A stretch of DNA of 64,000 nucleotides from Minutocellus sp. GHC0000111 (taxonomy: Eukaryota). The notes under the pieces are model-generated. The model was given only the letters and a program-made list of their open reading frames with translations, did no database searches and was not told where the DNA came from. Both the position numbers and the translations under genes were made by a program. The stretch lies in NCBI GenBank assembly GCA_977018835.1, contig OZ361256.1, positions 434,001 to 498,000 of the forward strand, written 5' to 3'. Every line of letters starts with the position of its first letter. Positions within the stretch are counted from its first letter, which is position 1. Positions 894-51,106 of the stretch are shown here, in pieces.

Positions 894-1557
894 ATGCCTA
901 GTAACGTTATCTCCCAGTGGAAGTACTACTTCAGCCCCCATCAGGACGATCCTCACTTTTCCGCGAACTACGTAAACAACCTTGTAATGGACAAGCTCAA
1001 GGACTTCTTTCCGGATGAACTTTTTTGCCACGGACGGAGGACTGTGCCAACGAGCTTGTCAAACGGCCCAACCTTCCCATCCTGTTCGTCGCGAAAAACA
1101 ACAGGCTCAAGGTCGCCTTTCTGCATCGTATCGTCTTAGAGAACGACGTTGATCCCAACCCAGCACTCGTGTCGATTGCCAACTCGGACCACAGAGCCAT
1201 TCCAGTCGAAATGGACCCTGAAGTGCTCTTTGCTCCAGTTGAAGACATTGACGTACCAACAGATTCGGCCCTCACAAAAGTCAAGTCAAGCTCGGACTTA
1301 GGAGGATTGCCCGTTTCGGCCACCACTAAGTTCAAAGGTCGCAATTGCATCGCTGTCCCCCCAGTCATGGCGTTTGCGGTGAGATGAATGCGCTGCTGAC
1401 GACAGCAACAAGCCAGATGAAGCCTTCCTTCCTAGATGTCGTGCATTTTCTCAAATCCTTTGATGATGCGAAGATCGATGAGATGCCAAAAGCGAAGAAG
1501 GCATGCATCCCCGCCCTCCGCTTCATCTGGGCTGCAAGCAAAGAGTTGATCCTGTAA
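894..1557 (+). pseudogene. Frameshifted ORF remnant, probably transposon-derived (possibly gag-like ORF of a YR retrotransposon)
   Basis: Three overlapping ORFs (894-1139, 1025-1387, 1345-1557) read as one protein-like sequence across frameshifts, at the edge of the TE island. The family guess is weak. Confidence 0.3.
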
Positions 1558-2234
1558 CTAAGTTCCCCGCTAGGGCCGAGTTGGTCCCATTTTAGGTTAG
1601 GCACTTCATGACATATGAGATTTCGCTAGCACTTTGCTCGCGTTGTCGGACGACGGAAAGACCGTCACTCATAAATTTTTTTCCCGAACGAAGCTCATCA
1701 TGGTGACCCCCGCTCCTGGCCGCTACACATTTGCAAGGTAAGATATGGGCATTTCCGAGGCTAGCCGATACCATTGCGCTACGTTTGCGAAAGTTTCATC
1801 TTGATTGGACTCTTATTGTATGAGAAAATATAATTCAAAACAATCAACCTGTGTTCGAGTACGCGAAAAAGGGCCGCGGATGAGAAGTGATACCGTGAGA
1901 GCCACAGCAGCCCGATCGACCCAGAATTGCAGAGACACACGTCCAAGACATACATGCAAATGTTTATGTGGTTGATTGTTGTATTTTTGATTCGTATCCG
2001 CCCCCGAATCGGCCGCCATTGAAAGCAAAATTTCATCCGGCGTCGTCGTTTTTGTGCGTGATTTTCTCCCCTCTTTTTCTCATCTTGCACTGCGAATTTT
2101 TGTGCCGGACCTTCTTGGTCACAAATCTCCATCAAGTGTAGATGTGTGACCCGCGCGCGGATGGCTTGCTCGCAGCAGCCTTTTCTCCATAATTCTGGGG
2201 AGAAAGTTGGTCCGGCGGTAACTTGTCATCACGT

Positions 2235-5200
2235 CACTTTCAAATCCTCTGAACTCGAAAGGTACAGAAAGGATGAGGCTAGACTATGCGAAGAATGCAT
2301 GATGCACACATGCAGTGGATATTGCATGAGACATCCAAAAGGAAAGAAGAAGAAGAAAAGATGCTGCCGTGCTGGGGCCGGAGAAGAAAAAACAAGAATA
2401 GAAACGACACTCCTGGTTTCCCAATGCGGGATGCTCCAGCTATTACTCACGACCACAGGGGATTTCTGAAACTCGAGATGCCACGGAATCATCCGCGTTT
2501 GGTCCAAGCTCCGCTAACAATTTTGAGAGGTTGGAGAGGTAATTGCGACTTTAAAATCCTGTTGTACAAATCCACGAATGGAAAACCACATCCCGAAGAA
2601 ATATCAACAGTGACCGACTATGTCGTCGCTTACCAATGCAAAGGAAATGAGAGAATCCAAGCTGAAATACAACTTCTCCGCGATTTTGCCTTAAAGTGAG
2701 TATGAATTAGTATTTGTATATTTTATGCTTCAATCTCAAACTAACAACGAGACTGCATGTTTTTATTATTATTTGAGAAAAGCGCTGAAACGATGACTGG
2801 GACAACAGCAGACGTCATCAGAGTGTCTCGACAAATGCTCAACCGATCAATTGCAAGCAGAACAATTCCAAAGCAAGAGTGTATGGTCGAACTAGCGGAA
2901 CTCCCGCTAGTCTTAAGTTCCGACACAACCGAAACAATGAACCTGTCAAGGAGTTACAAGATTAAATCGGATACTCACAGAGGCTTAGTGTCCCAATATC
3001 GAAAAATCGCAAAGAGCAATCCGACAATGTCACTACACGATTACGTTCGTAAGGCAATCAACGAGAAAAAGAGATCAGTGAAAAACGGAAAAAGGAAATA
3101 CAAAAACGTAATCCCGCATTACGTTGGGGCAAACGGTCAGCCGAAATACCCACCAACAAAAGAATACGCGATGGCAATTCTCATAGTACACAAACCATGG
3201 GAAGACAGCAAGCCAAAAAGAAGGAACGGAGCACAAGATTGGATCGACGAATTCAAAGAATTTGTCACATCAGAAGCGTGTCCAGAATTCGTGAAAATGG
3301 AATACGCACGAGTAAAAGAAAGAGCCGAGAGCAAGAGGCCATCCGAAGCGATATCATCAGAGGAGTGCTACGACTACGAGACACAAGCAGATGTTGACGA
3401 CTCAACCAAAGATCTTTTAAATATCATCACGACTCAAACACTGGCCACAGACCCGTTTTTAAATGTCCACGACCAAAAAATTAATAAAGGCCTACATTAC
3501 GACTGGTCCGAAAGAATGTCAGTAAGTCATTTATACCTGATTTATTTTCGTCGAATATTCAACAAACATAAATGACAAAAATACATCCAACAAGGGAAAT
3601 TTTTTGTTCGACACAACATCCGATATTTTTTTTAATTCTATCACGCATTTTTTTTTAAAAAAGACTAGGGATCCTTCATACCTAGGAGAGTCGTGGCTCG
3701 ATGAATTAACACAGGACTACCAAGCAGACCTCTCTGCCAAGCAGAGGGTAAGGCCTTTCACGATGACCCTCGACGGTGAAGTGACAAACATCACCATAGA
3801 CCACGTGAAAGATGACCAACTCGACGTGATTTTATTGGTAGTGGAAAACATAAAGAAATGGATAGAAAACGCAAAGGGAATCAACAAAAAGGATGCTAAA
3901 GAGTACAAGCCCCTTAGAATGACCGTAAGGGGAGCAGCAGGATCAGGTAAGAGTTTCTTCATTAAGGCCCTGGCAAATACGGTCAGAGAGATGTTTGGCG
4001 ATCAAAACGCAGTTCACATATCTGCGCCGACAGGAGCAGCAGCTCACAACGTCGGCGGCGAAACGATACACAGGAAATTCCAAGTAAATTCACACAGGCC
4101 AGAAAATGATATTGTTGGTAAGGAGGCGAAAGCTCGATTAAAGGAAACGAAAAGAAGAACAGTGGTCGAGATAATCGACGAGAGGAGCATGCTGACATGT
4201 AAAGTCGTGGGAGCAGCAGAAAGGCACACTGCAGAAGCAGCTCATGGAGGTTCCCACGCTAATGAAGACTGGGGTGGCACACCAGTGGTTGTATTTGTAG
4301 GCGACGACTACCAACTACCACCGCCAACAAATGTAGAGAAAGGAGCTTTCGATCTGATGGACAGCAAGACATCATTTTCACAACAAAAGCTAGGCGACGC
4401 ATCATTTGGATCACAACTCCTAATGAACATGTCAGAAAAATGCGTAGAGCTTAGGCGATCTCCACCCGCGCCGGTAAAGCTCCGGTAAAGAGAAAGGGGG
4501 ATTCCCTTTTCTTTCCCTCTCCGGCATAGCAGGTCCACCAATGCCTGTGTCGGTCAAAGTCGGTTTCGTCATAAACAGAATCTGTCCCATTGAAGTAGTC
4601 GGCAACTATGCGGCGATATGCACCTTCGAAGTCTAGATCCTTGTTTGGGGATCTGCCGGGACGAGAACCACCCCACACCGGTTCGTTGTGGTCTCACTTT
4701 CACTTTCATCGTCAATGTCATCACGCGCAGACCTCAACATGTCGCCAATAATTTGACCCATTGATGAGTTGGAGTGAGTGCTGGTCGCCAACTGATGGGC
4801 CAAGTCAAATTGTTCGTTTAGCATGTCATCCAATCCCGCGAGATGGTCGGTGTCGACGGTGCGATGAGAACCGGTGGGGCGAGCGAAAGAGCGGGAGGTA
4901 GACCGGGCCTCCGCCACATCTTGCCCTTGCATGTCATCACTACCAAAGGACTCCATGTTATTTGGCTGGCGCGTAATTATCCGATCAGTCCGATGCCGAA
5001 GTGATGGGATGCGCTGTTGTTGGAGACGAGATGTGCCGGTGTGCTCACGCAGGAGAGGGGTGCAAATAACGCGCGCAAAACGCTAACAAATCTTACCGTT
5101 TACCGGACGAATACAGACGCTGGTGGAGATCGCCTTAGTAGGTCAGTAAAACGTCAAAATGGAACACAGTCGAAGTTCAAGGAAGTGCTACAGAATCTAA

Positions 5201-5919
5201 GAACAGGAGACCCCACACACGACGATGCATCCTTTTTAATGAAGTTACATCTGGCAAACCTAACTCAAGCGGAGACAGAGGAAATGGAAAAGGACAAAGC
5301 AGCAATGCACATGTTCGCCACAAAAGCGCCACGAGACGAGCACAACGTGAGGAAGCTAAGTGAAAACGCATCCGACAGAAACCCCGCGGCACTAGTTAAA
5401 GCTTCATGGAAAACAAGCAGACGAGCAAACCTACAGTCCATCGCCCAGCACTTTGACAACCCACCAGATGCAGCAACTTTAATGTGCAGAGGGTCTGTGG
5501 TCAGAATCACAGGGAAAAATTTCGAGCCAGACTTTGGACTGTGTTCAACAACGCCATCGGAGCTGTAGAAGAAGTGGTGTTCAAACCAGGGAAAGACCCA
5601 AACAATGGGGACCAACCGAGTTATGTAGCTGTGAGGTTTGAAGGATGCAGCGGGCCAGCATGGGACGAGTCGGAACCAAAAATAGTCCCAATTCCAATGG
5701 TGACAAGAAGACGCAACAAAGGGTGCTGCGAAGTGACACATGCTGCCCCCACACTGAGCCTCTCATGCGGAGTGACAGCCCACACATTCCAGGGGCAATC
5801 AGCAGGACCAGTGGATGAAGGCCAACCAAAAAATGCAGTAGATTGTGTAGTGTTCTATCCAGGAAACAACAAATTCGAAGGAAACAACCCCGGCTTGTTG
5901 CACCTAGGTGCATGGGAAC
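2235..5919 (+). mobile_element. Helitron/Helentron-type Rep-Pif1 helicase gene, truncated and decayed, with probable introns (~2696-2780, ~3522-3663)
   Basis: Rep C-terminal region (WRGNCDFKILL, DYVVAYQCKG, IPKQECMVEL, IVHKPW). Pif1/SF1B motifs GAAGSGKS, APTGAAAHNVGGETIH, IIDERSM, VFVGDDYQLPP, VELSRSVKRQ (split by an insertion), TAHTFQGQS. Cut off by an LTR at 5920. Confidence 0.85.
4454..5134 (-). mobile_element. Non-autonomous PIF/Harbinger (Pong-like) element, 681 bp, inserted in the helicase
   Basis: TIR GGCGATCTCCACC(C/A)GCG (16/17 match); TTA target duplication at 4451-4453 and 5135-5137; subterminal CCGGTAAA repeats. Minus-strand fragment GGSRPGRSPNKDLDFEGAYRRIVADYFNGTDSVYDETDF resembles the N-terminus of Pong-type transposases. 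Removing the element restores VELSRSVKRQ. Confidence 0.9.
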
Positions 5920-6115
5920 TGTTGACACCGTGGGATACGTACGTACGTATACATACGTACGGTACGTACGGTGATCAGACCACTGACTCAGTGCCCTCTC
6001 CTGACCGTTGATCCATGGGCCAACGACATCTCCGATGGCCCATTTTTCATCTACGTAGGTCCTATTAACCTCTACTAGCTATATCTATCTAGCTTAGCTT
6101 TAGGACCTCTTAGCA
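5920..6115 (+). repeat. LTR copy 1 (196 bp, TG...CA)
   Basis: TGTTG...TAGCA; near-identical to 8407-8610 and 14421-14616. Confidence 0.95.
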
Positions 6116-7348
6116 GACCTACGTGATACATCTTTTCCACCCGTGCTCGCCCCATTTCGGTTCGCACCTCACCGGTTTGTCTTGGGTTCTCACTCGTCAC
6201 GCAAGAAAAACCGACACATCTTCAATCGGCCAAAACGACCGTTTCTTTCGACAACATTGGAACGACGATCCAATCCCTTCCCCGAAAGTCCTGACCAGAT
6301 CGACCCATCCAATCGATCACACTTCTCTGGATCGAACCTTCTGTCGATCACACGTCTCGCAGCAACACCGCCGTGCTGCCTGTCTTCTTCGCTGACTGAA
6401 ACACCAGCATGAATCCCGACGCAGTTTTTGGCCAACCTCTCGGCGCAGCGCCGATTCTCCCCAACAAGTTAATCACACGTGTGAATGACCCAGGACAACC
6501 TCCCCAACGCGAGCGTGTTGCCAAAGCGCTCAAGGAACTTCAACAAGCGGCGGCCAGCACTCCAGCAGGGTGCAATGACCATGACCTCGGCCATTTGGGC
6601 CTCGTCGTCAGCGATGCCGAACACACCACCAAAAGCAACGGCCGACCACATGTGCCTCCGGCAAATCCTGGCCCCAGCCCCACCATTCCCGCCGTGGCCA
6701 ATCTAGACCAACGCGATCGTGCAATCCGGGGACATTGCATCGAAAAGGGCCACTACAACTTGTGCGAGCAAGTCAACACGGCGCTCAAGAATCTCCTCCT
6801 CGACTCGATCGACGCCGTCCACATCAATCATCTCGAAGATGACATGCTCGGTTTCCAGCCAGTCACCATCCGCCAAATCATCGACAGCATTACCGATCGC
6901 TACTTGAAATTCAACGAGACTCAGAAGGAGGAATTAGAGAAGCAGCTCGAGAAGCAGCACGACGGGGGACCCATCGACACCCACATCGCCATGTTCAACA
7001 AAGTCTTCAAGGCGTTTGAAACGGCCGGCGAACCCTTCACCAACAAGCAAAAGGTCTCCAAGTTCTACCGCTCCGTGCGCAGGTTCTCATTGGCAAAGAA
7101 GGCATGCGAGGACTGGGACGACGACAGACCGGAGGCCGAACGCACGTGGGCCAACATGCAGTCGGACTTCCGCGATTGGTGTGATAAGAAGATGGCCAAC
7201 ACCACCACCGAAGCGGCAGGATGTCATGGCGCGAATTTGGCCTCATCGGCCTCGGACGATCCATTTCTTTCTCGAGCCGATCTCCTTTTGGCTGACACCA
7301 CCGAAGCCCTCAAGACCAACCAAGCCATGTTGGCGAACCTCGCAAAAT
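5920..7348 (+). mobile_element. 3'-truncated Ty1/copia element (LTR, 5' UTR and partial gag from 6409)
   Basis: Collinear and highly similar to 8407-~9838; similarity stops abruptly after ...ANLA. Confidence 0.92.
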
Positions 7349-7901
7349 TACATTTTGATTTGGTGCTTCCAAAAATGTGTGTTTTTTCCCGGGGTGAGGA
7401 ATGCATATGTCGAAAAAAATCATCACATAATGTACATTTATTGGTTCTGGTGCACAATATCTCTCGACTATATGTAGAAGTTGGTGACCATAACTTGGTT
7501 CTTGCCCCGACTTCCATCTTGGCCGTCATTTATTCCTCGGAGTTAGAAAAAGTGAGCTTGGATTTTTGGTCTGGTGTGGTCGTGGTATGAGGTAGCGCTT
7601 GTGCTGCTGTGTGAACTGTACGTTTCGGCCAGAGTCAACTTAGATCAGTGTATATTAGCACGACGATAGGACCTTCTCTCACGATGAAGTTTCATTCGGA
7701 TTGCTTCCTGCTGATGCCATGCTGCCTTGCTCGCGCTGCGATGCCGCAGAGTCATCGGCCGGCGACCGTCGTGCAAAATGTGGGTATCCAATGGCCCTTC
7801 TCAAAGCATACACAAAATGACGAATTGCCCGAGGTTTCCGAGGTTCGAGACAAATTGCTTTCCCGTCTTTTCTATTTTCAGAAATGCCAGCCTCTCAAAA
7901 G

Positions 7902-8406
7902 TCACGGCAGCATCAAACGAAACGGGGCAAGTGCACGGGATCTTTTTGTTGTAGCCAACAGCGGCATGCTTGCGACTTTTTGCCTGACCGTCGGATTTGT
8001 AGTCCTCGCATTGAAGTTCCAATCGCTCTCTGCAACAAACTCAGAAAGGCCGTAGATTTCGGCAATGTGGTCGCAAAGATGGCCGGCGGTCATGTCAGCA
8101 TTCTCGTCGTAAATGTCGCGCCAATCTTTGTCATTTTTTAGCGCATCGTTGACCTTAGCATCTGGAGAGAAATTCTGATTACGCGCAAGCTTTTCCACCT
8201 TCTGCTCCCTGGCGACTGACTCTCATGTTGATCATCATGATGCGCCCATTGAAATCAACGTCTTTGGTTTCATCCTTCATTGGTCGGCCAACAACTCCAA
8301 GATGCATAACTTTGACAGGGTGTCTTCTGGATCGAATTTTCGGGCTTGCCTCGGAAGCATGGACAGACGCGAGGTTCGGACTACTTAGTTCTTCGTCAGA
8401 AAGTGG
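7902..8406 (-). pseudogene. Fragment of a Tc1/mariner-like (plant-mariner/DD39D-type) transposase
   Basis: Minus-strand translation KIRSRRHPVKVMHLGVVGRP...DFNGRIMM...RVSR / KLARNQNFS resembles the K-V-M-F-L-x-x-V-A-R-P...F-D-G-K-I block of plant-type mariners. Frameshifted; cut by LTR2. Confidence 0.5.
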
Positions 8407-8610
8407 TGTTGATGCCGTGGGATACGTACGTACATATACATACGTACGGTACGTACGGTACGTACGGTGATCAGACCACTGACTCAGTGCCCTCTCCTGA
8501 CCCTTGATCCATGGGCCAACGACATCTCCGATGGCCCATTTTTCATCTACTAGGTCCTATTAACCTCTACTAGCTATATCTATCTAGCTTAGCTTTAGGA
8601 CCTCTTAGCA
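8407..8610 (+). repeat. LTR copy 2 (5' LTR, 204 bp; one extra GGTACGTAC unit)
   Basis: TGTTG...TAGCA; aligns to the other two LTRs. Confidence 0.95.
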
Positions 8611-8902
8611 GACCTACGTGATACATCTTTTCCACCCGTGCTCGCCCCCCATTTCGGTTCGCACCTCACCGGTTTGTCTTGGGTTCTCACTCGTCACGCA
8701 AGAAAAACCGACACATCTTCAATCGGCCAAAACGACCGTTTCTTTCGACAATATTGGAACGACGATCCAATCCCTTCCCCGAAAGTCCTGACCAGATCGA
8801 CCCATCCAATCGATCACACTTCTCTGGATCGAACCTTCTGTCGATCACACGTCTCGCAGCAACACCGCCGTGCTGCCTGTCTTCGCTGACTGAAACACCA
8901 GC

Positions 8903-10185
8903 ATGAATCCCGACGCAGTTTTTGGCCAACCTCTCGGCGCAGCGCCGATTCTCCCCACAAAGTTAATCACACGTATGAATGACCCAGGACAACCTCCCCA
9001 ACGCGAGCGTGTTGCCAAAGCGCTCAAGGAACTTCAACAAGCGGCGGCCAGCACTCCAGCAGGGTGCAATGACCATGTGACCTCGGCCATTTGGGCCTCG
9101 TCGTCAGCGATGCCGAACACACCACCAAAAGTAACGGCCGACCACATGTGCCTCCGGCAAATCCTGGCCCCAGCCCCACCATTCCCGCCGTGGCCAATCT
9201 AGACCAACGCGATCGTGCAATCCGGGGATGTCACATCGAAAAGGGCCACTGCAACTTGTGCGAGCAAGTCAACACGGCGCTCAAGAATCTCCTCCTCGAC
9301 TCGATCGACGCCGTCTGCATCAATCATCTCGAAGATTACATGCTCGGTTTCCAGCCAGTCACCATCCGCCAAATCATCGACAGCACTGCCGATCGCTACT
9401 TGAAATTCATCGAGACTCAGAAGGAGGAATTAGAGAAGCAGCTCGAGAAGCAGCACGACGGGGGACCCATCGACACCCACATCGCCACATTCAACAAAGT
9501 CTTCAAGGCGTTTGAAACGGCCGGCGAACCCTTCACCAACAAGCAAAAGGTCTCCAAGTTCTACCGCTCCGTGCGCAGGTTCTCATTGGCAAAGAAGGCA
9601 TGCGAGGACTGGGACGACAGACCGGAGGCCGAACGCACGTGGGCCAACATGCAGTCGGACTTCCGCGATTGGTGTGATGAGAAGATGGCCAACACCACCA
9701 CCGAAGCGGCAGGATGTCATGGCGCGAATTTGGCCTCATCGGCCTCGGACGATCCATTTCTTTCTCGAGCCGATCTCCTTTTGGCTGATGCCACCGAGGC
9801 CCTCAAGACCAACCAAGCCATGATGGCGAACCTCGCCAAAAAGAGCAACGAGAAGGATGATACCATTGCCAAACTTCGCCAAGAAACAGCTTCACTCAAG
9901 GCCGAGAACCGCGTTCTGCGTGAGGGACGCAACCATGCTGGTGGCAGTGGAGGCTACCGCGGCGGTGGCCAGCAGAACGGCGCCGGCCACTTCCCAGGCC
10001 AAGGTCCTAACCTCAACCGCCAGGAGAAGCGGGAACTGCAGTCGATCCTCCCCAGAGGCCATCATTGCCACACGTGCGGCTATTCGTCCAACCACCCCAG
10101 CTTTGAATGCACTTGCAAAGGGCCCAACCACGTTGATAACGCCACCAAGTGCAATCCTTGCGGTGGTAGCTCGCGTCGTAACTGA
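8903..10185 (+). pseudogene. Copia gag (frameshift near 9077), C-terminal Cys/His knuckle
   Basis: ORFs 8903-9202 and 9091-10185; knuckle CHTCGYSSNHPSFEC; ends in TGA in frame with pol. Confidence 0.85.
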
Positions 10186-13100
10186 GCGGGAGGGACGGTG
10201 GATATTAATCAGTGTAAAATAGAGGATGGCATGTCTGAATCCACCTCCTCCCCGCCTTCGTTAGCTTTTCTTACGTCAAAAAGCAAACCTCCAACTCAAG
10301 AGCCAATCGTCCTCGCAGCAGATACTGGAACGACGGGACATTTTGTCCAGAAGCCCCAATGCCTGTCGTGCGATGGCCCTATTTTCAACGTCCAACAGAC
10401 AGCAATTCCTATCAGCGTCACCCTTCCGGATAATAGCACAATGACGAACACCCACGAGGCCACGCTTCGCCTCCCTGGGGTTCCCCATCGGCTAGCAAGG
10501 CCTATATTTTCAATAACATAACATCATCGCTCCTATCGATTGGGCAGCTGTGTGACGATGGATGTGTTGCCACTTTCGATAAGGATTCGGTAGTCATCGC
10601 CAAGGACAATGCCGTCATTTTGCAAGGTAAACGAGACCCCTCAACGAAATTGTGGATGGTAGATCTTAATTGCTCGCCCACCATGTCGCCGCTCCCCGGC
10701 CCCAACGTCATCCAACATGCTGCCAACGCCGCAATTGCCCAGGAGACGGTTCCGGAACGTGTAGCCTTTTTACATTGGTGCGCTGGCAGTCCTCAGCTAT
10801 CTACCTGGTGCAAAGCAATCGATGGGGTTTTTTATTGATCTTGGCCAGGCCTCACATCAAAGCTTGTACGTAAGCACATGCCACAGTCGATACCGATGAT
10901 TAAAGGTCACTTAGACCAGCAGCGCAAGAACATCAGGTCGACCAAGCCCAAACGGTCGATGGCTACGCCAAAATCTCTCCCTGGGGTGGACGAAACCGAG
11001 CAGGATCTCCACCCGGCACAACACCAACAGCGCACCAACTATGTCTTTGCTGATTGTCATGACATAACGGGCCAGATCTTCTCAGATCAGCCCGGCCGTT
11101 TCTTGGTATCGTCTATTTCTGGCCACCAGTACATAATGGTCGTCTATGACTATGACTCCAACAGCATCTTGGCCGAACCAATGAAAAGCCGATCGGGAAC
11201 GGAAATGCGCCGAGCGTGCCAAACTATTTTCGAATACCTCTCCAAGCGAGGATTTCGCCCAAAATTGCAACGATTGGACAATGAAGTGAGTCGAGAGCTG
11301 AAGGAGTTCATGGAAGAAAAGGATGTAGATTTTCAATTGACCCCAACGCACTCCCACCGCCGAAATGCGGCCGAACGAGCCATTCAAACCTTTAAGAATC
11401 ATTTCATTGCGATTCTCTGTGGTACCGATCCCGACTTTCCCCTCATCTTGTGGGATAAATTGCTGGAGCAGGCGGTAATGACCCTCAATTTCCTGAGAGC
11501 ATCCCGAGTCAACCCTCGACTATCAGCGTACGAGCAACTCAATGGCGGCTTTGATTTCAATCGCACGCCTCTCGGCCCCCTCGGATGCAAGGTCATCTTT
11601 CACGAGATGCCCTCGGCACGCGGCTCTTGGTCCCCGCATGGCGTTGATGGGTGCTATGTCGGTCCAGCCATGGAACACTACCGGTGTTACAAGGTTTGGA
11701 TTGAGGAAACTCGGGCGGAACGCACTGGTAACACACTCGTCTGGCTCCCCAAAATGATTCCGGCACCCAAAACGTCGTCGGCCGATGCAGCAATAGTCGC
11801 AGCTCATGAACTCCTGCACGCTCTACAGAATCCACATCCAGCGGCACCCCTTGCTCCCCTTCGAGACGAGCATCGTCAAGCTTTAGAAAAGCTCTCCGAG
11901 ATTTTCAACAGCGTGACCCCAGCAGAATCTGCCACCTCCGCCTCTGATGAGACGATGCAGACAACCGCAGCTCCGAGGGTGCTGGAGAACGATGACGACT
12001 CCCAACGATTCCGCCACGGTGCCATCGTCGCCAAAGTGTTTGGAGATCGCAATTACAAGGGTAGAGTCGTTGCATTTGACAAGAAGTATAAGTACTACAA
12101 AATCAAATACGAGGACGACGACGTAGAAGAGATGAACGAGACTGAAGTAGGCCGTCACCTTGTCTCCAACCCCAACGCTCCGTTACCTCAGCCCCATCAA
12201 CCTCCGAGGGTGGCAAAATCCTCCACATATGATGCAGCCACCACTAAAAGCCGTCGATCACGTCGATCCAACGCGCCACCTCGCTCGTCAGTTTCTTCCA
12301 ACTACTACAATCCTTTGGCTGCAGTAGACGAGCCCAACGGCGACGATGATGATAATCATGACGACGATGCAACCGTCGTAACATCCAATCAAAGTTCCAA
12401 TGCCCCCACCTCCCGTCGGCAACGTAAACGCAAGTCTCCAACGATCGATACCACTCCAACATTACCAGCTCCAGCAAAATCGACAAGCAAGTCCAAACCA
12501 TCGACCGCCAAACCACCTCGACGACGATCATGCCGTCAGCGAGGGTACATTCCACATCAGAACCCTCCCCCACGGCCATCATCTCGTCGTGGTGCCCACC
12601 ACGTGGCCAACATGGCAGCGTTCTCGCCTTTACCAAACCTCCAACACTTTGCTAACGCCGTCGTCCATCCCGACACTGGTGCAATGCTTGAACACCGCGA
12701 CCTCCTCAAAACGAACATGAGGGACCAATTCATTCAAGCAAACATCGATGAAATTGGACGGCTAACGGACGGCCGAGTTGGAAACAGTGCTAGCATTCCC
12801 TCCAATGCAATGGCTTTCGTCCACTGGTCCGAACTGCCTCGGGGGGAAAAAGCCACATGCCTCCGCATTGTCGCCGACTGTCGCTCCCATAAACCAAATC
12901 CCAATCGAGTTCGATGGACTGCAGGAGGCGACAAAATTCATTGCCCTGGTGCAGTCTCGACCCCGACCGCTGAAATGTTGACTGCAAAGTTACTTTTCAA
13001 CAGCGTCATCTCTACAGACAACGCTCGTTTCATGGGAATTGATATCAGTGACTTCTATCTCAATAGCACCATGCCAGAGCCAGAATGGATGTGGGCGCCA

Positions 13101-14372
13101 GTAGCTCTCATCCCCGACGAAGTCATGGAAGCCTACGACCTCCACGACAAAGTAAAAAGAATGGTCGAGCATTGGTCAGAATCGATGGCGGAATGTATGG
13201 ATTGCCCCAGGCAGGGCGCCTAGCCTACGATAAACTTGTCAAGCATCTCAAACCCCATGGCTATTTCCCTTGCAAGCGTGCTGCAGGCCTTTGGAGGCAC
13301 AACACCCGCCCAATTACCTTTTGCCTAACCGTTGACGATTTTGGAGTGAAGTGTGTCGGGAAAGAGCATGCAGACCATCTCATTCAGGCCCTCAACTCCA
13401 AGTGTAAGATCACTACCGATTGGGAAGGCCGACTTTGTTGTGGTGTTCAACTCGAGTGGAACTACGAGGCCAAATGGGTGGATCTATCTATGCCTAACTA
13501 CGTCAAGGAGATGCGCCACAAGTTCCAACACGACCGCCCCTCACGGCCCGAGCATGCGCCATGTCGATGGAATCGTCCGACGTGTGGCCCGGGACCCCAG
13601 CTGCCAGAACCGGAAGACGACTCACCACCACTCGACGCCAAAGGCATCAACGAAATTCAACAGGTGGTGGGCAGCTCCTTGCACCATGGTCGAGCAATTG
13701 ATTCAACAATTTTACCGGCGCTCAACAGCATCTCAGCGGAACAATCCAAAGCTACCGAGCGCACTCAACAAGATGCCAAGAAGCTTCTAGATTACCTTGC
13801 AACCCATCCCGACGCAGTCATTCGATACGTCAAGTCAGACATGATCCCACATGTGCACAGCGACGCCTCCTGCTTGTCAGCCCCGAAATCAAGAAGCAAG
13901 CTCGGAGGGCACTTCTACCTAAGCTCCCGACCTAAGGACCCGCACCGCCAGCCTGACTCAAGTGATCCCATGCCACCAATGAATGGAGCCATCCTCGTCA
14001 ATGCCAATGTCATCAAGCATGCAATGTCCTCAGCCGCTGAAGCCGAATTGGGAGGATTATTTTTCAACATGAAAGATGCAGTGCCAATCCGGGCAGCACT
14101 AGAAGAAATGGGTCACCCGCAGCCCCCTACTGCTATCGTCGTTGACAACTCTACAGCATCTGGAATCGCCAATAAAACCGTCAAGCAAAGACGGTCTAAG
14201 GCTATGGACATGAGATTCTGCTGGGTCCAAGATCGCACAGAGCAACGACAATTCCATCCAGGTGCACTGGCGGAAAGGAGCGCAAAATTTGGCCGATTAT
14301 TTTACAAAGCACCATCCCGCCCGCTACCATGTCAACATGCGACCAGTCTACTTACATGTAGATTCCAATTAG
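10186..14372 (+). pseudogene. Copia pol (protease, integrase, Tudor-like domain, RT, RNase H) with frameshifts and a stop
   Basis: PR ADTGTTGHF; IN KGHLDQ, FSDQPGRF, RLDNE, RRNAAERAIQTFKNHF; RT GIDISDFYL, GMYGLPQAG, LTVDDFGVK; RH HSDAS, SSAAEAELGGLF, VDNSTA, RSKAMDMRF, NLADYFTKHH. Confidence 0.93.
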
Positions 14373-14420
14373 GACTCTACATGTAGATTCAATGGCACTA
14401 GTCATTGATCTGCGAGGGTG

Positions 14421-14616
14421 TGTTGATGCCGTGGGATACGTACGTACGCACACATACGTACGGTACGTACGGTGATCAGACCACTGACTCAGTGCCCTCT
14501 CCTGACCGTTGATCCATGGGCCAACGACATCTCCGATGGCCCATTTTTCATCTACGTAGGTCCTATTAACGTCTACTAGCTATATCTATCTAGCTTAGCT
14601 TTAGGACCTCTTAGCA
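14421..14616 (+). repeat. LTR copy 3 (3' LTR, 196 bp)
   Basis: TGTTG...TAGCA, preceded by the purine-rich tract. Confidence 0.95.
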
Positions 14617-15117
14617 TGTCTACCCGAGGAGACACCCACACCCGAATGGGTGTCGGGTGCCGGTTTTTGCCGGGTGGGTGGGGGCAGATGTTCTACCCAC
14701 CCGACCAACGCATGGCGATGGGTGACACCCACCCGACACCCATCGTTGCAGACGTGTGGATGGGTGGCTAGATGGGTGTGAAAATTGCCTCATCTCTAGG
14801 CCAAATTTGCATGCAACTTTGCACAACAGCCACCACGAACAACGCCAAAATCCCCCTAAAAGTGGCCACCAAGAGCTCAAGGTGCCCACCACAGTGAACT
14901 TTTAGCAGAAGAACTCGGCTTTGCCGAAGAAAAATCTGAGTTTGAGCCTCTCATGCACCCAAAATTAGACACCCATTGCCCATGCCCGATGCCCGCCACT
15001 TCAAGCAAGCATGCAAATGGGTGCCTGCCCGTCTACCCACACCCATCCAGAATTCTCTTCGGGTAACACCCGACACCCACCCACCCATGACAAAAAGTGG
15101 TCGGGTAGACAACCCTG
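14617..15117. mobile_element. hAT-like MITE whose left TIR is clipped by the LTR
   Basis: Right end TCGGGTAGACAACCCTG implies the TIR CAGGGTTGTCTACCCGA; the left end retains TGTCTACCCGA directly after LTR3. Many ACCC/GGGT subterminal repeats. Confidence 0.7.
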
Positions 15118-48696: not shown

Positions 48697-51106
48697 ATGC
48701 GACGCCCCAATAATACATCTACAGCGCTACTCCTGGCGCTTGCGTTGTCCCCCTCTTTATGCAACCTGGCATCGGCGCAGGCACAGCCCACCGGAGGAAC
48801 TGATCTGGGTGGCGGCATCGTAACGCAGACGAACGTGGAGCACTTTGCCAAGATCTCGCTCGATGCCGAGGAGATGTTCACCCTCACCCAGTCCAATTCG
48901 TACAACGATGCATCCAACATATACCTGGCCGGCAAAAACTCCATCCAGTACGACCGGAATGGCAATGCTCTTCCCACCAAACGCAGCCTTTCGTCGCTGT
49001 CCACCGGCGCTTCCGACGGCAAGTTCGATGGGGAGGTCCCGTTTGTCTTTCAGATGTATGGGCTGGCGGGCGGTGCTGGCCACACATATGAGACCTATGA
49101 AAGCTTCGCTACGTATGCCGATGCTTTTGTCAACGATTCCCTCAAGGAACAGAAGGGTGCGCTGGGACCAGAAGCGGCGGTCGCACTCAACGTTTGGATG
49201 TATGCCGCTCACGTTCTCACCATTGCCGTGGAAGATTGCGCATTGGAATCGTCCGGGGTCAATCTGGACATTATTGGGCGCGACGAAGCCCTCGGTGGCA
49301 GCGAGGATGCGCTTGACATTTTCATAGCATTTTGGATTGGATACAACCAAGCTCCTGGAAGTGACGATGGAAGCTCTCCTTATGCCATGGCCGAGCGTGC
49401 CGCTACCCTCTTCGGCACTTCCGGTCCTAATGGCGAAGCCAAGGCCAATGTTGCAATCAAAGCACTCTTTAATAAAGCGCAGCAAATCCTGTCCTTCCCT
49501 AATGCCTGCCGTCCTGGATCTGATACCGTTGGTCAGCTTTGGGGCATCCTCCATCGCACCGTCAGTCAGATGCAGGTCCCTCTTGTTCAGCAGCTGATTG
49601 ATGCTCTGGTCCGCGAGGACCAAGACCGCATCAGCCTGTATGCCAAGGCCGTCGTCCCACAAATGTCCAGTTGCGCTGCATCAACGTATCGTCGTCTGAA
49701 GGAGAACTTGCTAGATCGTACCTATGATCCCACCAAGTTTGTAGATGTTCTTGGAGACTTACAATCAAGCTATGACTGCCTCGGCTTTAGTTGTGACGAC
49801 ATCGGCGCCTACAAGACGGACCGAGTGGCGCAGTGTGCTGAGTTGCCAATCAATTTCCCTATGGCTGAATACAGTCCAACTAGTCATGTTCATTTGGTGA
49901 GTTGCTGAAGAATTCAAGAGCTTTATGAAATGTGTTGCTGTGCATTTTAGAATTACAAATTTCTCACTTTTATTTCCACCACGACCTCTTCATGGTTTGT
50001 TTTGGCTTTGGCTTCAGCATTCAAAAATCGATCTGGATGTTAATGCAATCAAGGCTTTGTTGAGTTTCGACAGTGACGAATCCTGGGCCGCAGCGAAGGA
50101 TATTTACATGTATGGCAAAAATTCGGAAATCTACCGTAAATCTCCTGAAAGCGATCCGTACACGGTCCGTTCCCTGCAAAGTCTGGCAACGTCAGCTCTC
50201 CGAAAGAAATCCCCTTGGTACAAACTGTTTGAAGAATATCACCAAGATCCCAACTATGCTGATAAGATTATCATGGATGTCTTTGAGGGACGAGGGAAAT
50301 GGGGCAATGCCGCCCGAGAACAGAGAGCAGAGATGCTAACAAAGACCATCCAATACCAGGTTCTTTACATGTACCTGCTCGCCGAGGCAGCTGATGCTGA
50401 AGCCGATTGCCGATCCGGAGACAAGAATGATAATATCGGTGGAGCACATTCCTGGGACGAGGTCGCTGCTTTCTACATTGGCTCTCTTGAGGGCACTACT
50501 CGAGGCGGATCAAATGACTTTTCCGATGGACAGCTTCAATGGAATCTCGCCAACAAGCGCTCGACTCAGTTCAACACCCAAGTTCCTGACGGATATGCGT
50601 TGGTCAATTCGGAGATTGAAGATGATCTCTATGCCGGTAAGGGCGAGTTGGATGCCTACGCCTGTGATAGCCTGTCCAAGACGATCAAACGTATTGAACG
50701 CAATTCGATCGTGCCCATGATTCAAAGCGTTATTCGATACGCCCTCAAGGTGGAGGATTTATCGTACAGCTCAAGCAGCAAGGATATTGCCGAGGCAGAA
50801 GCTTTTGCAATGGCAATACTGCCCATTGTAAAATCGGTGGATATGCCCGGCGCAATAGTTTTGGAGAACAACATGATCATTCAGGAAGGAGTCCAACCAG
50901 TATCCGAAGGAGCGCAACGAGTCGCAGACGCCTTTTACAAGACCATGGTAGAATTTGAGCTGGAATGTGAACTTGTGGGCCAGGCCGATGGCGTAGGAGC
51001 CTGTGAAATGTTTAGAAAGATGTCCAGTCCGGCCAGCTCCATGTGGTCGTCAGCAGCACCCTTGCTTTCCATTATGCTTGCTGGAGCCCTATCTGCGCTG
51101 CTCTGA
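48697..51106 (+). CDS. Secreted protein with two FEA (low-iron-inducible periplasmic protein)-like domains and hydrophobic C-terminus; intron ~49897-50017
   Basis: Signal peptide; repeated blocks HFAKISLD/HSKIDLD, IYLAGKNS/IYMYGKNS, ALDIFIAFWIG/SWDEVAAFYIGSLEG, VPLVQ/VPMIQSVIRYA. Confidence 0.8.

What the first reader, a model, noticed from the sequence alone, without database searches (positions are those of the whole stretch)
12006..12162. Tudor-like domain downstream of integrase in a Copia element
Seen: between the integrase core and RT, within low-complexity linker, sits a compact module RFRHGAIVAKVFGDRNYKGRVVAFDKKYKYYKIKYEDDDVEEMNETEVGRHL. Established: the pattern V-A-K-x-F...G-x-V...Y-x-I-x-Y-E-D-x-D-x-E-E matches Tudor-like (PTM/DIR17-type) domains, and Gypsy chromoviruses use an integrase C-terminal chromodomain for heterochromatin targeting. 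Inference: this Copia lineage may have captured a methyl-lysine reader independently for site selection, consistent with all three of its external LTR junctions here lying in other TEs.
Basis: partly seen in the sequence, partly recalled or inferred. Interest (0 to 1): 0.7.

Follow-up and report, generated by a model that had tools for sequence, protein, structure and literature searches.

The report
Tudor reader in diatom Copia retrotransposon
A copia-type jumping gene, probably from a diatom, carries a conserved Tudor domain between its integrase and reverse transcriptase; this domain likely reads a methylated histone and may steer where new copies land, but no target or insertion bias has been shown.

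Summary
Confirmed. Window 12006-12161 is a true PTM/DIR17-type Tudor domain (Pfam E=1.6e-13, above cut-off; five-strand barrel; top PDB hits are Tudors), in frame in the integrase-RT linker of a broken copy of a multi-copy Copia element. Protease and Gag markers match CoDi-B (CoDi5), not the chromodomain-bearing CoDi-A. The Tudor is in 4 of the 120 nearest Pol clusters, which form one clade, as a clean insertion under purifying selection (pN/pS 0.15). More distant CoDi-B-like fragments carry the same Tudor type, so capture was repeated or old. The pocket (F, Y, Y, D, D) copies the spacing of the RDM15 monomethyl-lysine site, so a low-methyl reader is likelier than an H3K9/K27 trimethyl reader; heterochromatin homing is not shown, and three junctions without a target-site duplication are weak evidence. 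Precedents: CoDi-A chromodomain (2009), Ectocarpus Gypsy Tudor (2025). I found no Copia Tudor in print, but this scan noted a Copia PHD-Tudor cassette on other DNA. New variant of a known kind.

The parts
12006..12161 (+). PTM/DIR17-type Tudor domain in the integrase-RT linker of Pol; pocket residues F (12039), Y (12054), Y (12108), D (12114), D (12120), E (12126)
   Evidence: Pfam PF21743 E=1.6e-13; AF2 model and fold searches; pocket residues invariant in four families except the last E
11971..11981 (+). PRV motif 1, coded CTCCGAGGGTG; candidate central plus-strand primer (copy of the 3' PPT), upstream edge of the insertion
   Evidence: 11-nt exact repeat with 12202-12212; same codons in the related family L001 while 53-77% of synonymous sites differ
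12202..12212 (+). PRV motif 2, same 11-mer; downstream edge of the insertion
14413..14420 (+). PPT position directly before the 3' LTR, CGAGGGTG, the same 8-mer as in both PRV motifs
10839..13223 (+). Longest open stretch of pol: integrase (zinc-binding region, DDE core, SH3-like part, C-terminal helices), linker with Tudor and basic patches, RT start
13067..14386 (+). Rest of RT and RNase H, in another frame (this copy is broken)
   Evidence: RVT_2 E=0.0012; alignment with full-length relatives
10186..10838 (+). Protease region of pol (ADTGTTGHF, LPDN, LLS motifs), broken in this copy
   Evidence: markers compared with Llorens 2009 supplement rows
8903..10185 (+). gag with one C-terminal Cys/His zinc knuckle, frameshifted in this copy
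8407..8610 (+). 5' LTR (LTR2), TG...CA
   Evidence: 5 differences in 195 aligned bases from LTR3
14421..14616 (+). 3' LTR (LTR3), TG...CA; abuts a MITE six bases inside its terminal repeat
5920..7345 (+). Second, truncated copy of the same family (LTR1 5920-6115 plus part of gag), inside a PIF1-helicase frame and cut by another repeat

Best explanation
This CoDi-B-type Copia lineage carries a conserved Tudor domain inserted behind its integrase, which likely stays on the mature integrase and is predicted to bind a lowly methylated lysine on histones, so that it would tether the integration complex to marked chromatin and bias insertion. Shown: the domain, its position, its restriction to one clade among the nearest relatives, purifying selection, and an intact pocket. 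Inferred: that protease cuts downstream of it (an H-x-A-N motif pair near the RT start resembles the one before integrase), that it binds methyl-lysine (by spacing to RDM15), and that binding steers insertion (by analogy to chromoviruses). The mark itself is unknown; the pocket points to mono- or dimethyl-lysine rather than trimethyl.
For: PF21743 above cut-off and Tudor fold. 4 of 120 nearest Pol clusters carry it; they are one clade with FastTree support 1.0 in integrase (121 rows) and RT (112 rows) trees, nested among Tudor-less relatives; the alignment shows a clean insertion of about 60 residues. Window versus L001: Tudor pN 0.118, pS 0.77 (ratio 0.15), integrase core 0.062/0.53 (0.12), linker just upstream 0.40/0.58 (0.69). 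Across families the Tudor is 65-81% identical, flanking linkers 29-63%, integrase core 84-92%. F14, Y19, Y37, D39, D41 are invariant in 4 of 4 families; RDM15 uses W616, Y623, Y641, D643, D645, E647 for H3K4me1 (PMC8184781, passages): the Y-to-Y distance (18) and +2/+4/+6 acidic spacing are the same. Close relatives of the domain sit in bromodomain, RCC1, RdRP and zf-PARP proteins, and next to CoDi-B integrase or RT pieces in at least 4 other fragments. Chromodomains at this place are reported to direct integration in Gypsy elements (cited in PMC12477816 and PMC5348765, passages).
Against: No binding and no insertion-site bias was measured; no genome was held for the window. The pocket residues are as conserved in the wider family (e.g. 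D39 in 147 of 148, Y37 in 141 of 148), so their conservation may be structural. The first pocket residue is F, not W, and its loop is two residues shorter than in RDM15; RDM15 is only Foldseek rank 40 and VIA Z 5.8, below PHF19 and LBR, and I could not superpose residues. 113 of 117 complete linkers of relatives do without any such domain, so it is dispensable for the wider lineage. The protease cut sites are inferred from motif likeness only.
Confidence: 0.5

Rival explanations
1. The Tudor is functional but not a targeting device: it binds a methylated non-histone protein, nucleic acid or a silencing factor, and serves nuclear retention, particle assembly or escape from silencing.
For: Purifying selection says nothing about the ligand. 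The best Foldseek and profile hit is the lamin-B receptor Tudor, and related domains occur on an RdRP protein and a resolvase. Tudors also read methyl-arginine (PMC9998398, passages).
Against: Position on the integrase tail repeats that of chromodomains in three unrelated lineages and of the Ectocarpus Gypsy Tudor; the acidic-aromatic pocket matches a histone-binding Tudor.
Confidence: 0.25
2. One reading: the Tudor reads repressive marks (H3K9me2/3, H3K27me3) and homes the element into TE-rich heterochromatin, as chromoviruses do.
For: All three outer junctions here lie in other repeats. Diatom TEs carry H3K27me3 and H3K9me2/3 (PMC9998398, passages). Best VIA match PHF19 is a trimethyl reader. 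A three-aromatic pocket with an acid could still take a dimethyl mark.
Against: Three junctions from one nested island, without target-site duplication and without a baseline; purifying selection against genic insertions gives the same picture. A TPR gene starts about 1.3 kb past the 3' LTR and the next 48 kb hold many genes. The fourth cage position is Asp, as in the monomethyl reader RDM15, not aromatic as in PHF1.
Confidence: 0.17
3. A neutral passenger: a host fragment captured into a tolerant linker and kept only because it folds and does no harm.
For: The linker is long, low in complexity and very variable (36-263 residues in the rows shown, median 160); most relatives lack the domain.
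Against: pN/pS 0.15 with near-saturated synonymous sites, against 0.69 and 0.38 in flanking linker; kept intact in four families up to 35% apart, and in more distant lineages.
Confidence: 0.06

Closest known systems
CoDi-A (CoDi-I) Ty1/Copia elements of diatoms with a putative integrase C-terminal chromodomain (Llorens et al. 2009, PMC2774666; passages and supplement rows seen, the alignment figure not seen)
   Same: Diatom-type Copia, a Royal-family reader module between integrase and RT, proposed independent capture.
   Different: Here the module is a five-strand PF21743 Tudor, not a chromodomain; the element shows CoDi-B markers (one zinc knuckle, LPD-type protease flap, LLS), a group scored 'Chromo No' in that paper.
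Gypsy-10_Ec32 of Ectocarpus and its Tribonema homologue (PMC12477816, 2025; passages and supplement rows seen), called there the first reported TE with a Tudor domain
   Same: A Tudor domain at the integrase C-terminus of a stramenopile LTR retrotransposon; function untested there too.
   Different: Gypsy, domain at the end of Pol; here Copia, domain inside Pol between integrase and RT. I could not compare the two Tudor sequences.
Chromoviruses and oomycete Chronos elements (PMC5348765, passages)
   Same: Reader domain fused to integrase, thought to steer insertion.
   Different: Gypsy, chromodomain, heterochromatin targeting tested in some members; nothing tested here.
Arabidopsis RDM15/PDS5C Tudor (PDB 7DE9; PMC8184781, passages) and the similar MSH6 Tudor (bioRxiv 10.1101/2025.05.08.652912, passages)
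   Same: Spacing of aromatic-Tyr-Tyr plus two Asp and a Glu.
   Different: F for W, shorter first loop, no Gln at the RDM15 654 position; host proteins, not mobile; not the best fold match.
CoDi-B / CoDi5 / CoDiII Copia elements (Maumus et al. 2009, PMC2806351; passages and one section seen, supplements not readable)
   Same: Marker motifs; nearest named integrases are Phaeodactylum (58-59%) and Fragilaria (55%) proteins.
   Different: Described members have no reader domain in the linker.

Membership tests
Tudor domain, PTM/DIR17 type (PF21743) | Score above Pfam gathering cut-off | tested here: met
   50.7 bits against 27.2; 43-45 bits in three full-length relatives
Tudor domain, PTM/DIR17 type (PF21743) | Five-strand SH3-like barrel | tested here: met
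   Five strands plus helix, pLDDT 76; Tudor chains lead Foldseek (E 0.015-0.04) and VIA (Z 7.4) lists
RDM15/MSH6-type monomethyl-lysine reader | Three aromatic cage residues plus two Asp at the RDM15 spacing | tested here: inconclusive
   Sequence spacing matches for Y-Y-D-D-E; first residue F with a loop two shorter; no residue-level superposition possible
RDM15/MSH6-type monomethyl-lysine reader | Binds H3K4me1 peptide | not testable with these tools
   needs ITC or peptide array
Ty1/Copia | LTRs and Pol order PR-IN-RT-RH | tested here: met
CoDi-B (CoDi5, CoDiII) | One CCHC-type array, LPDG-type protease pattern, LLS motif, per Llorens 2009 table | tested here: met
   One Cys/His knuckle in Gag, LPDN and SLLSIG in Pol against supplement rows 80-85
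CoDi-B (CoDi5, CoDiII) | RT groups with named CoDi5 references in a tree | not tested
CoDi-A (chromodomain-bearing Copia) | Chromodomain at the integrase C-terminus | tested here: not met
   No chromodomain family in Pfam at E<=1; the module is PF21743
CoDi-A (chromodomain-bearing Copia) | No CCHC array, mostly LPIV protease pattern | tested here: not met
Chromatin-targeted retrotransposon (works like a chromovirus) | Insertion bias that depends on the reader domain | not testable with these tools
   No genome held; contig loose ends gave only a few unclassifiable flanks

The most novel reading that the evidence does not exclude
Diatom CoDi-B Copia elements have repeatedly fitted one host Tudor family, a monomethyl-lysine reader of the RDM15/MSH6 kind, into a slot between duplicated central plus-strand primers, and use it to aim integration at a low-methyl mark such as H3K4me1: a retrotransposon targeting code different from the heterochromatin homing of chromoviruses, and the first Tudor-guided Copia.
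Probability: 0.27. Interest if true: 0.75.

Novelty: new variant of a known kind. Interest (0 to 1): 0.5.

Why it matters
It adds a Tudor-Copia pairing to the growing list of independent reader captures by stramenopile retrotransposons and gives a natural control: close sister families with and without the domain. A 52-residue soluble domain with a predictable pocket makes it cheap to ask which mark a diatom retrotransposon reads and whether reader capture really changes insertion sites, which has been assumed for CoDi-A since 2009 without a test that I could find. If the mark is monomethyl-lysine, reader-guided elements are not only heterochromatin seekers.

Tried and rejected
No genome is held for the window, so insertion sites could not be surveyed. 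Viral contigs held no relative of the Pol; the metagenome scan gave 1 locus from 325 pattern matches. phmmer against PDB gave only a chance hit at E=1.5; the 4-sequence profile gave LBR Tudor at E=0.054. The Atlas first hit was a PF21743 cluster at 0.91 but under the recognition threshold; it did not place P0170. A tree of 152 Tudor domains (57 columns, quick search only, 98 of 149 inner branches open) kept our four together (support 85) but could not tell one capture from several, nor name a donor. Contig loose ends gave too few LTR flanks to classify. RNA runs hold the stretch as contigs and one metatranscriptome contig spans the Tudor (X8, 11848-12805), but contigs do not show transcription, and in X9 the listed pieces stop either side of it. 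One search compared two frames of the 7350-8406 repeat to no purpose; its likeness to Tc1/mariner transposases is from recall, and Pfam gave no hit on the frame tested. The CoDi-A chromodomain alignment is a figure and could not be read; Maumus supplements were not readable, so these may bear on the claim that no CoDi Tudor is described. Literature searches for a Copia Tudor: (25 papers, 23 listed, one opened for this point); none shows one; bioRxiv 10.64898/2026.05.21.726589 has no occurrence of Tudor or Copia. Rejected: chance or low-complexity artefact; misassigned chromodomain; one-off insertion in this copy.

Full report
Observation. Pfam gives PF21743 PTM_DIR17_Tudor at E=1.6e-13, 50.7 bits against a cut-off of 27.2, and no chromodomain family at E<=1. 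A single-sequence AlphaFold2 model has five strands and a short helix, pLDDT 76 in the best model and 40-56 in the other four. Foldseek finds nothing at E<=0.001, but its ten best rows are Tudor-containing chains; VIA-align ranks PHF19 Tudor first (Z 7.4), with unrelated SH3-like barrels close behind. The domain call therefore rests mainly on Pfam, with the fold in agreement.

The element. LTRs of about 200 bp (8407-8610, 14421-14616; 5 differences in 195 bases) bound gag and a pol in the order PR-IN-RT-RH. This copy is broken by frameshifts and a stop; full-length relatives exist (P0023, P0028, P0029). The family is multi-copy: its cluster has 113 members, and in run X2 single contigs of the element have depth 4,300-4,800 against about 100 for the neighbouring genes, roughly 45-fold, a figure the tool says is not a true copy number. 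The host is probably a diatom: the nearest named integrases are from Phaeodactylum (58-59%) and Fragilaria (55%) and the window holds an Fea1-family gene; this is inference. One Cys/His knuckle in Gag, LPDN and LLS in the protease match the markers tabulated for CoDi-B (CoDi5), scored 'Chromo No', and not CoDi-A.

Distribution. Of 676 Pol clusters found with the integrase, the best 120 were listed; 4 carry PF21743 (81-100% identical to the query integrase) and 116 (53-63%) do not. Two rescans with my own profiles gave the same 4 of 120; 117 of the 120 had a complete linker. The carriers form one clade, support 1.0 in integrase and RT trees, nested among non-carriers, and the alignment shows a clean insertion of about 60 residues. 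Among the 15 listed members of the window's own cluster, 9 cover the region and show the domain; the others are fragments or frame-broken. The deeper search found 818 proteins at E<=0.001 (150 listed). Most are multi-Tudor or chromatin-type eukaryotic proteins (of 51 scanned, some add bromodomain, RCC1, RdRP or zf-PARP domains). But four fragments join the same Tudor type to a CoDi-B integrase end (P0267, P0305) or RT start (P0284, P0285) at only 32-70% identity to the nearest of my Pols, and P0281 and P0299 look the same by eye. So the domain is not unique to this clade: either several captures or an old one with many losses; the 57-column tree cannot decide.

Selection. Window against L001 (a relative of P0023): Tudor 52 codons, pN 0.118, pS 0.77; integrase core 0.062 and 0.53; linker before 0.40 and 0.58; far linker 0.26 and 0.70. 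Synonymous sites in the Tudor are saturated, so I give pN/pS (0.15), not dN/dS. Among three intact families the Tudor is 65-81% identical, linkers 29-63%, RT 74-90%. The domain is maintained as protein.

Likely ligand. F14, Y19, Y37, D39 and D41 (numbering of alignment A1) are invariant in the four families; position 43 is E in three and Q in one. RDM15 binds H3K4me1 with W616, Y623, Y641, D643, D645 and uses E647 for H3R2, whereas PHF1 has a four-residue aromatic cage for a trimethyl mark (PMC8184781, passages). The Y-to-Y distance of 18 and the +2, +4, +6 acids are the same here; the first loop is two shorter. This is a sequence comparison, not a superposition; RDM15 is not the top fold hit, and the same residues are near-invariant in 148 other domains. 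It makes a low-methyl reader the better guess and weakens, without excluding, a K9/K27 trimethyl reader.

Junctions. LTR1 (5920) sits in a PIF1-helicase frame, LTR2 in a repeat of depth 19,275 in X2 whose empty site shows in X1 and X8, and LTR3 six bases inside the terminal repeat of a MITE. The 5-base flanks GGAAC, AGTGG and TGTCT do not match, so these are not two ends of one insertion. One nested island next to a gene-dense region cannot separate targeting from survival.

An added clue. The Tudor lies between two PRV motifs coded by the same 11-mer, CTCCGAGGGTG, whose last 8 bases equal those just before the 3' LTR. Both motifs keep identical codons in L001 over 15 or more bases although over half of synonymous sites differ. 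A [P/L]RV motif occurs in 114 of 117 linkers (RV 264 times, 88.5 expected). I infer these are central plus-strand primers; the domain may have entered by template switching at such a site. DNA was seen for two families only, L001 does not reach its own 3' end, and the 8-mer is not rare window-wide (4 seen, 2.2 expected), though three of the four are in this element on one strand.

Known and new. CoDi-A Copia elements were reported with a putative chromodomain and independent capture was proposed (PMC2774666); chromodomain capture recurs in oomycete Chronos (PMC5348765); a Gypsy of Ectocarpus was called the first TE with a Tudor (PMC12477816). Five searches showed no Copia Tudor; the library lacks most subscription papers and some supplements were not readable. 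Earlier notes of this scan report a PHD-Tudor cassette in another Copia and Tudors on BEL/Pao integrases (unchecked), and nothing like this sequence. That Ty1 and Ty5 target through the integrase tail is recalled, not checked.

Verdict. A real, selected Tudor domain in a CoDi-B Copia: a new pairing within a known theme. Reader-guided insertion is the most likely role (0.5) and is untested. Interest 0.5.

Noticed in passing
window 8364-12846 against run contigs; cluster members P0003, P0005-P0018: Copies of this family carry TpA to TpG/CpA changes: 17 of 19 A>G or T>C changes among 29 listed differences are at TpA (11 of the 40 shown rows, in frameshift clusters, left out; 112 not shown). At sites invariant in three intact families, 164 of 374 Tyr positions are changed in the 15 copies (94 to Cys, 67 to His) against 6 of 249 Phe. 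The truncated gag copy has TA obs/exp 0.17. The scan has noted this signature many times; one paper search found nothing.
   Followed up: partly
window 11971-11981, 12202-12212, 14413-14420; L001: PRV motifs of the CoDi-B linker use the same 8-mer as the 3' PPT position: candidate multiple central plus-strand primers for the whole lineage.
   Followed up: partly
P0215: The best-scoring domain outside this clade (67 bits) ends a protein that by eye resembles a Polinton/giant-virus-type integrase; Pfam found only the Tudor, so the integrase call is from recall.
   Followed up: no
P0263; P0273, P0261, P0307: Same Tudor type fused to a serine resolvase/recombinase, and after a segment that looks PDZ-like by eye in what may be another Copia linker (not confirmed by Pfam).
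   Followed up: no
P0070: A CoDi-B-like Pol with a CCCH zinc finger between protease and integrase: another passenger domain.
   Followed up: no
window 14617-15117: MITE with terminal repeat ending TCGGGTAGACA; its left end lacks six bases at the LTR3 junction; several-fold depth in X2.
   Followed up: partly
window about 1500-5919, interrupted near 4490-5000: Degenerate Helitron-like element with PIF1 helicase (E=5.4e-15), itself carrying another insert.
   Followed up: no
window 7346-8406, minus strand: High-copy repeat with a broken frame resembling Tc1/mariner-type transposases (recalled motif, no Pfam hit); it cuts the first gag copy and is cut by LTR2.
   Followed up: partly
window 49901-51106: Fea1 (low-iron-inducible) family gene, E=7e-11, a hint of an algal host.
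   Followed up: no
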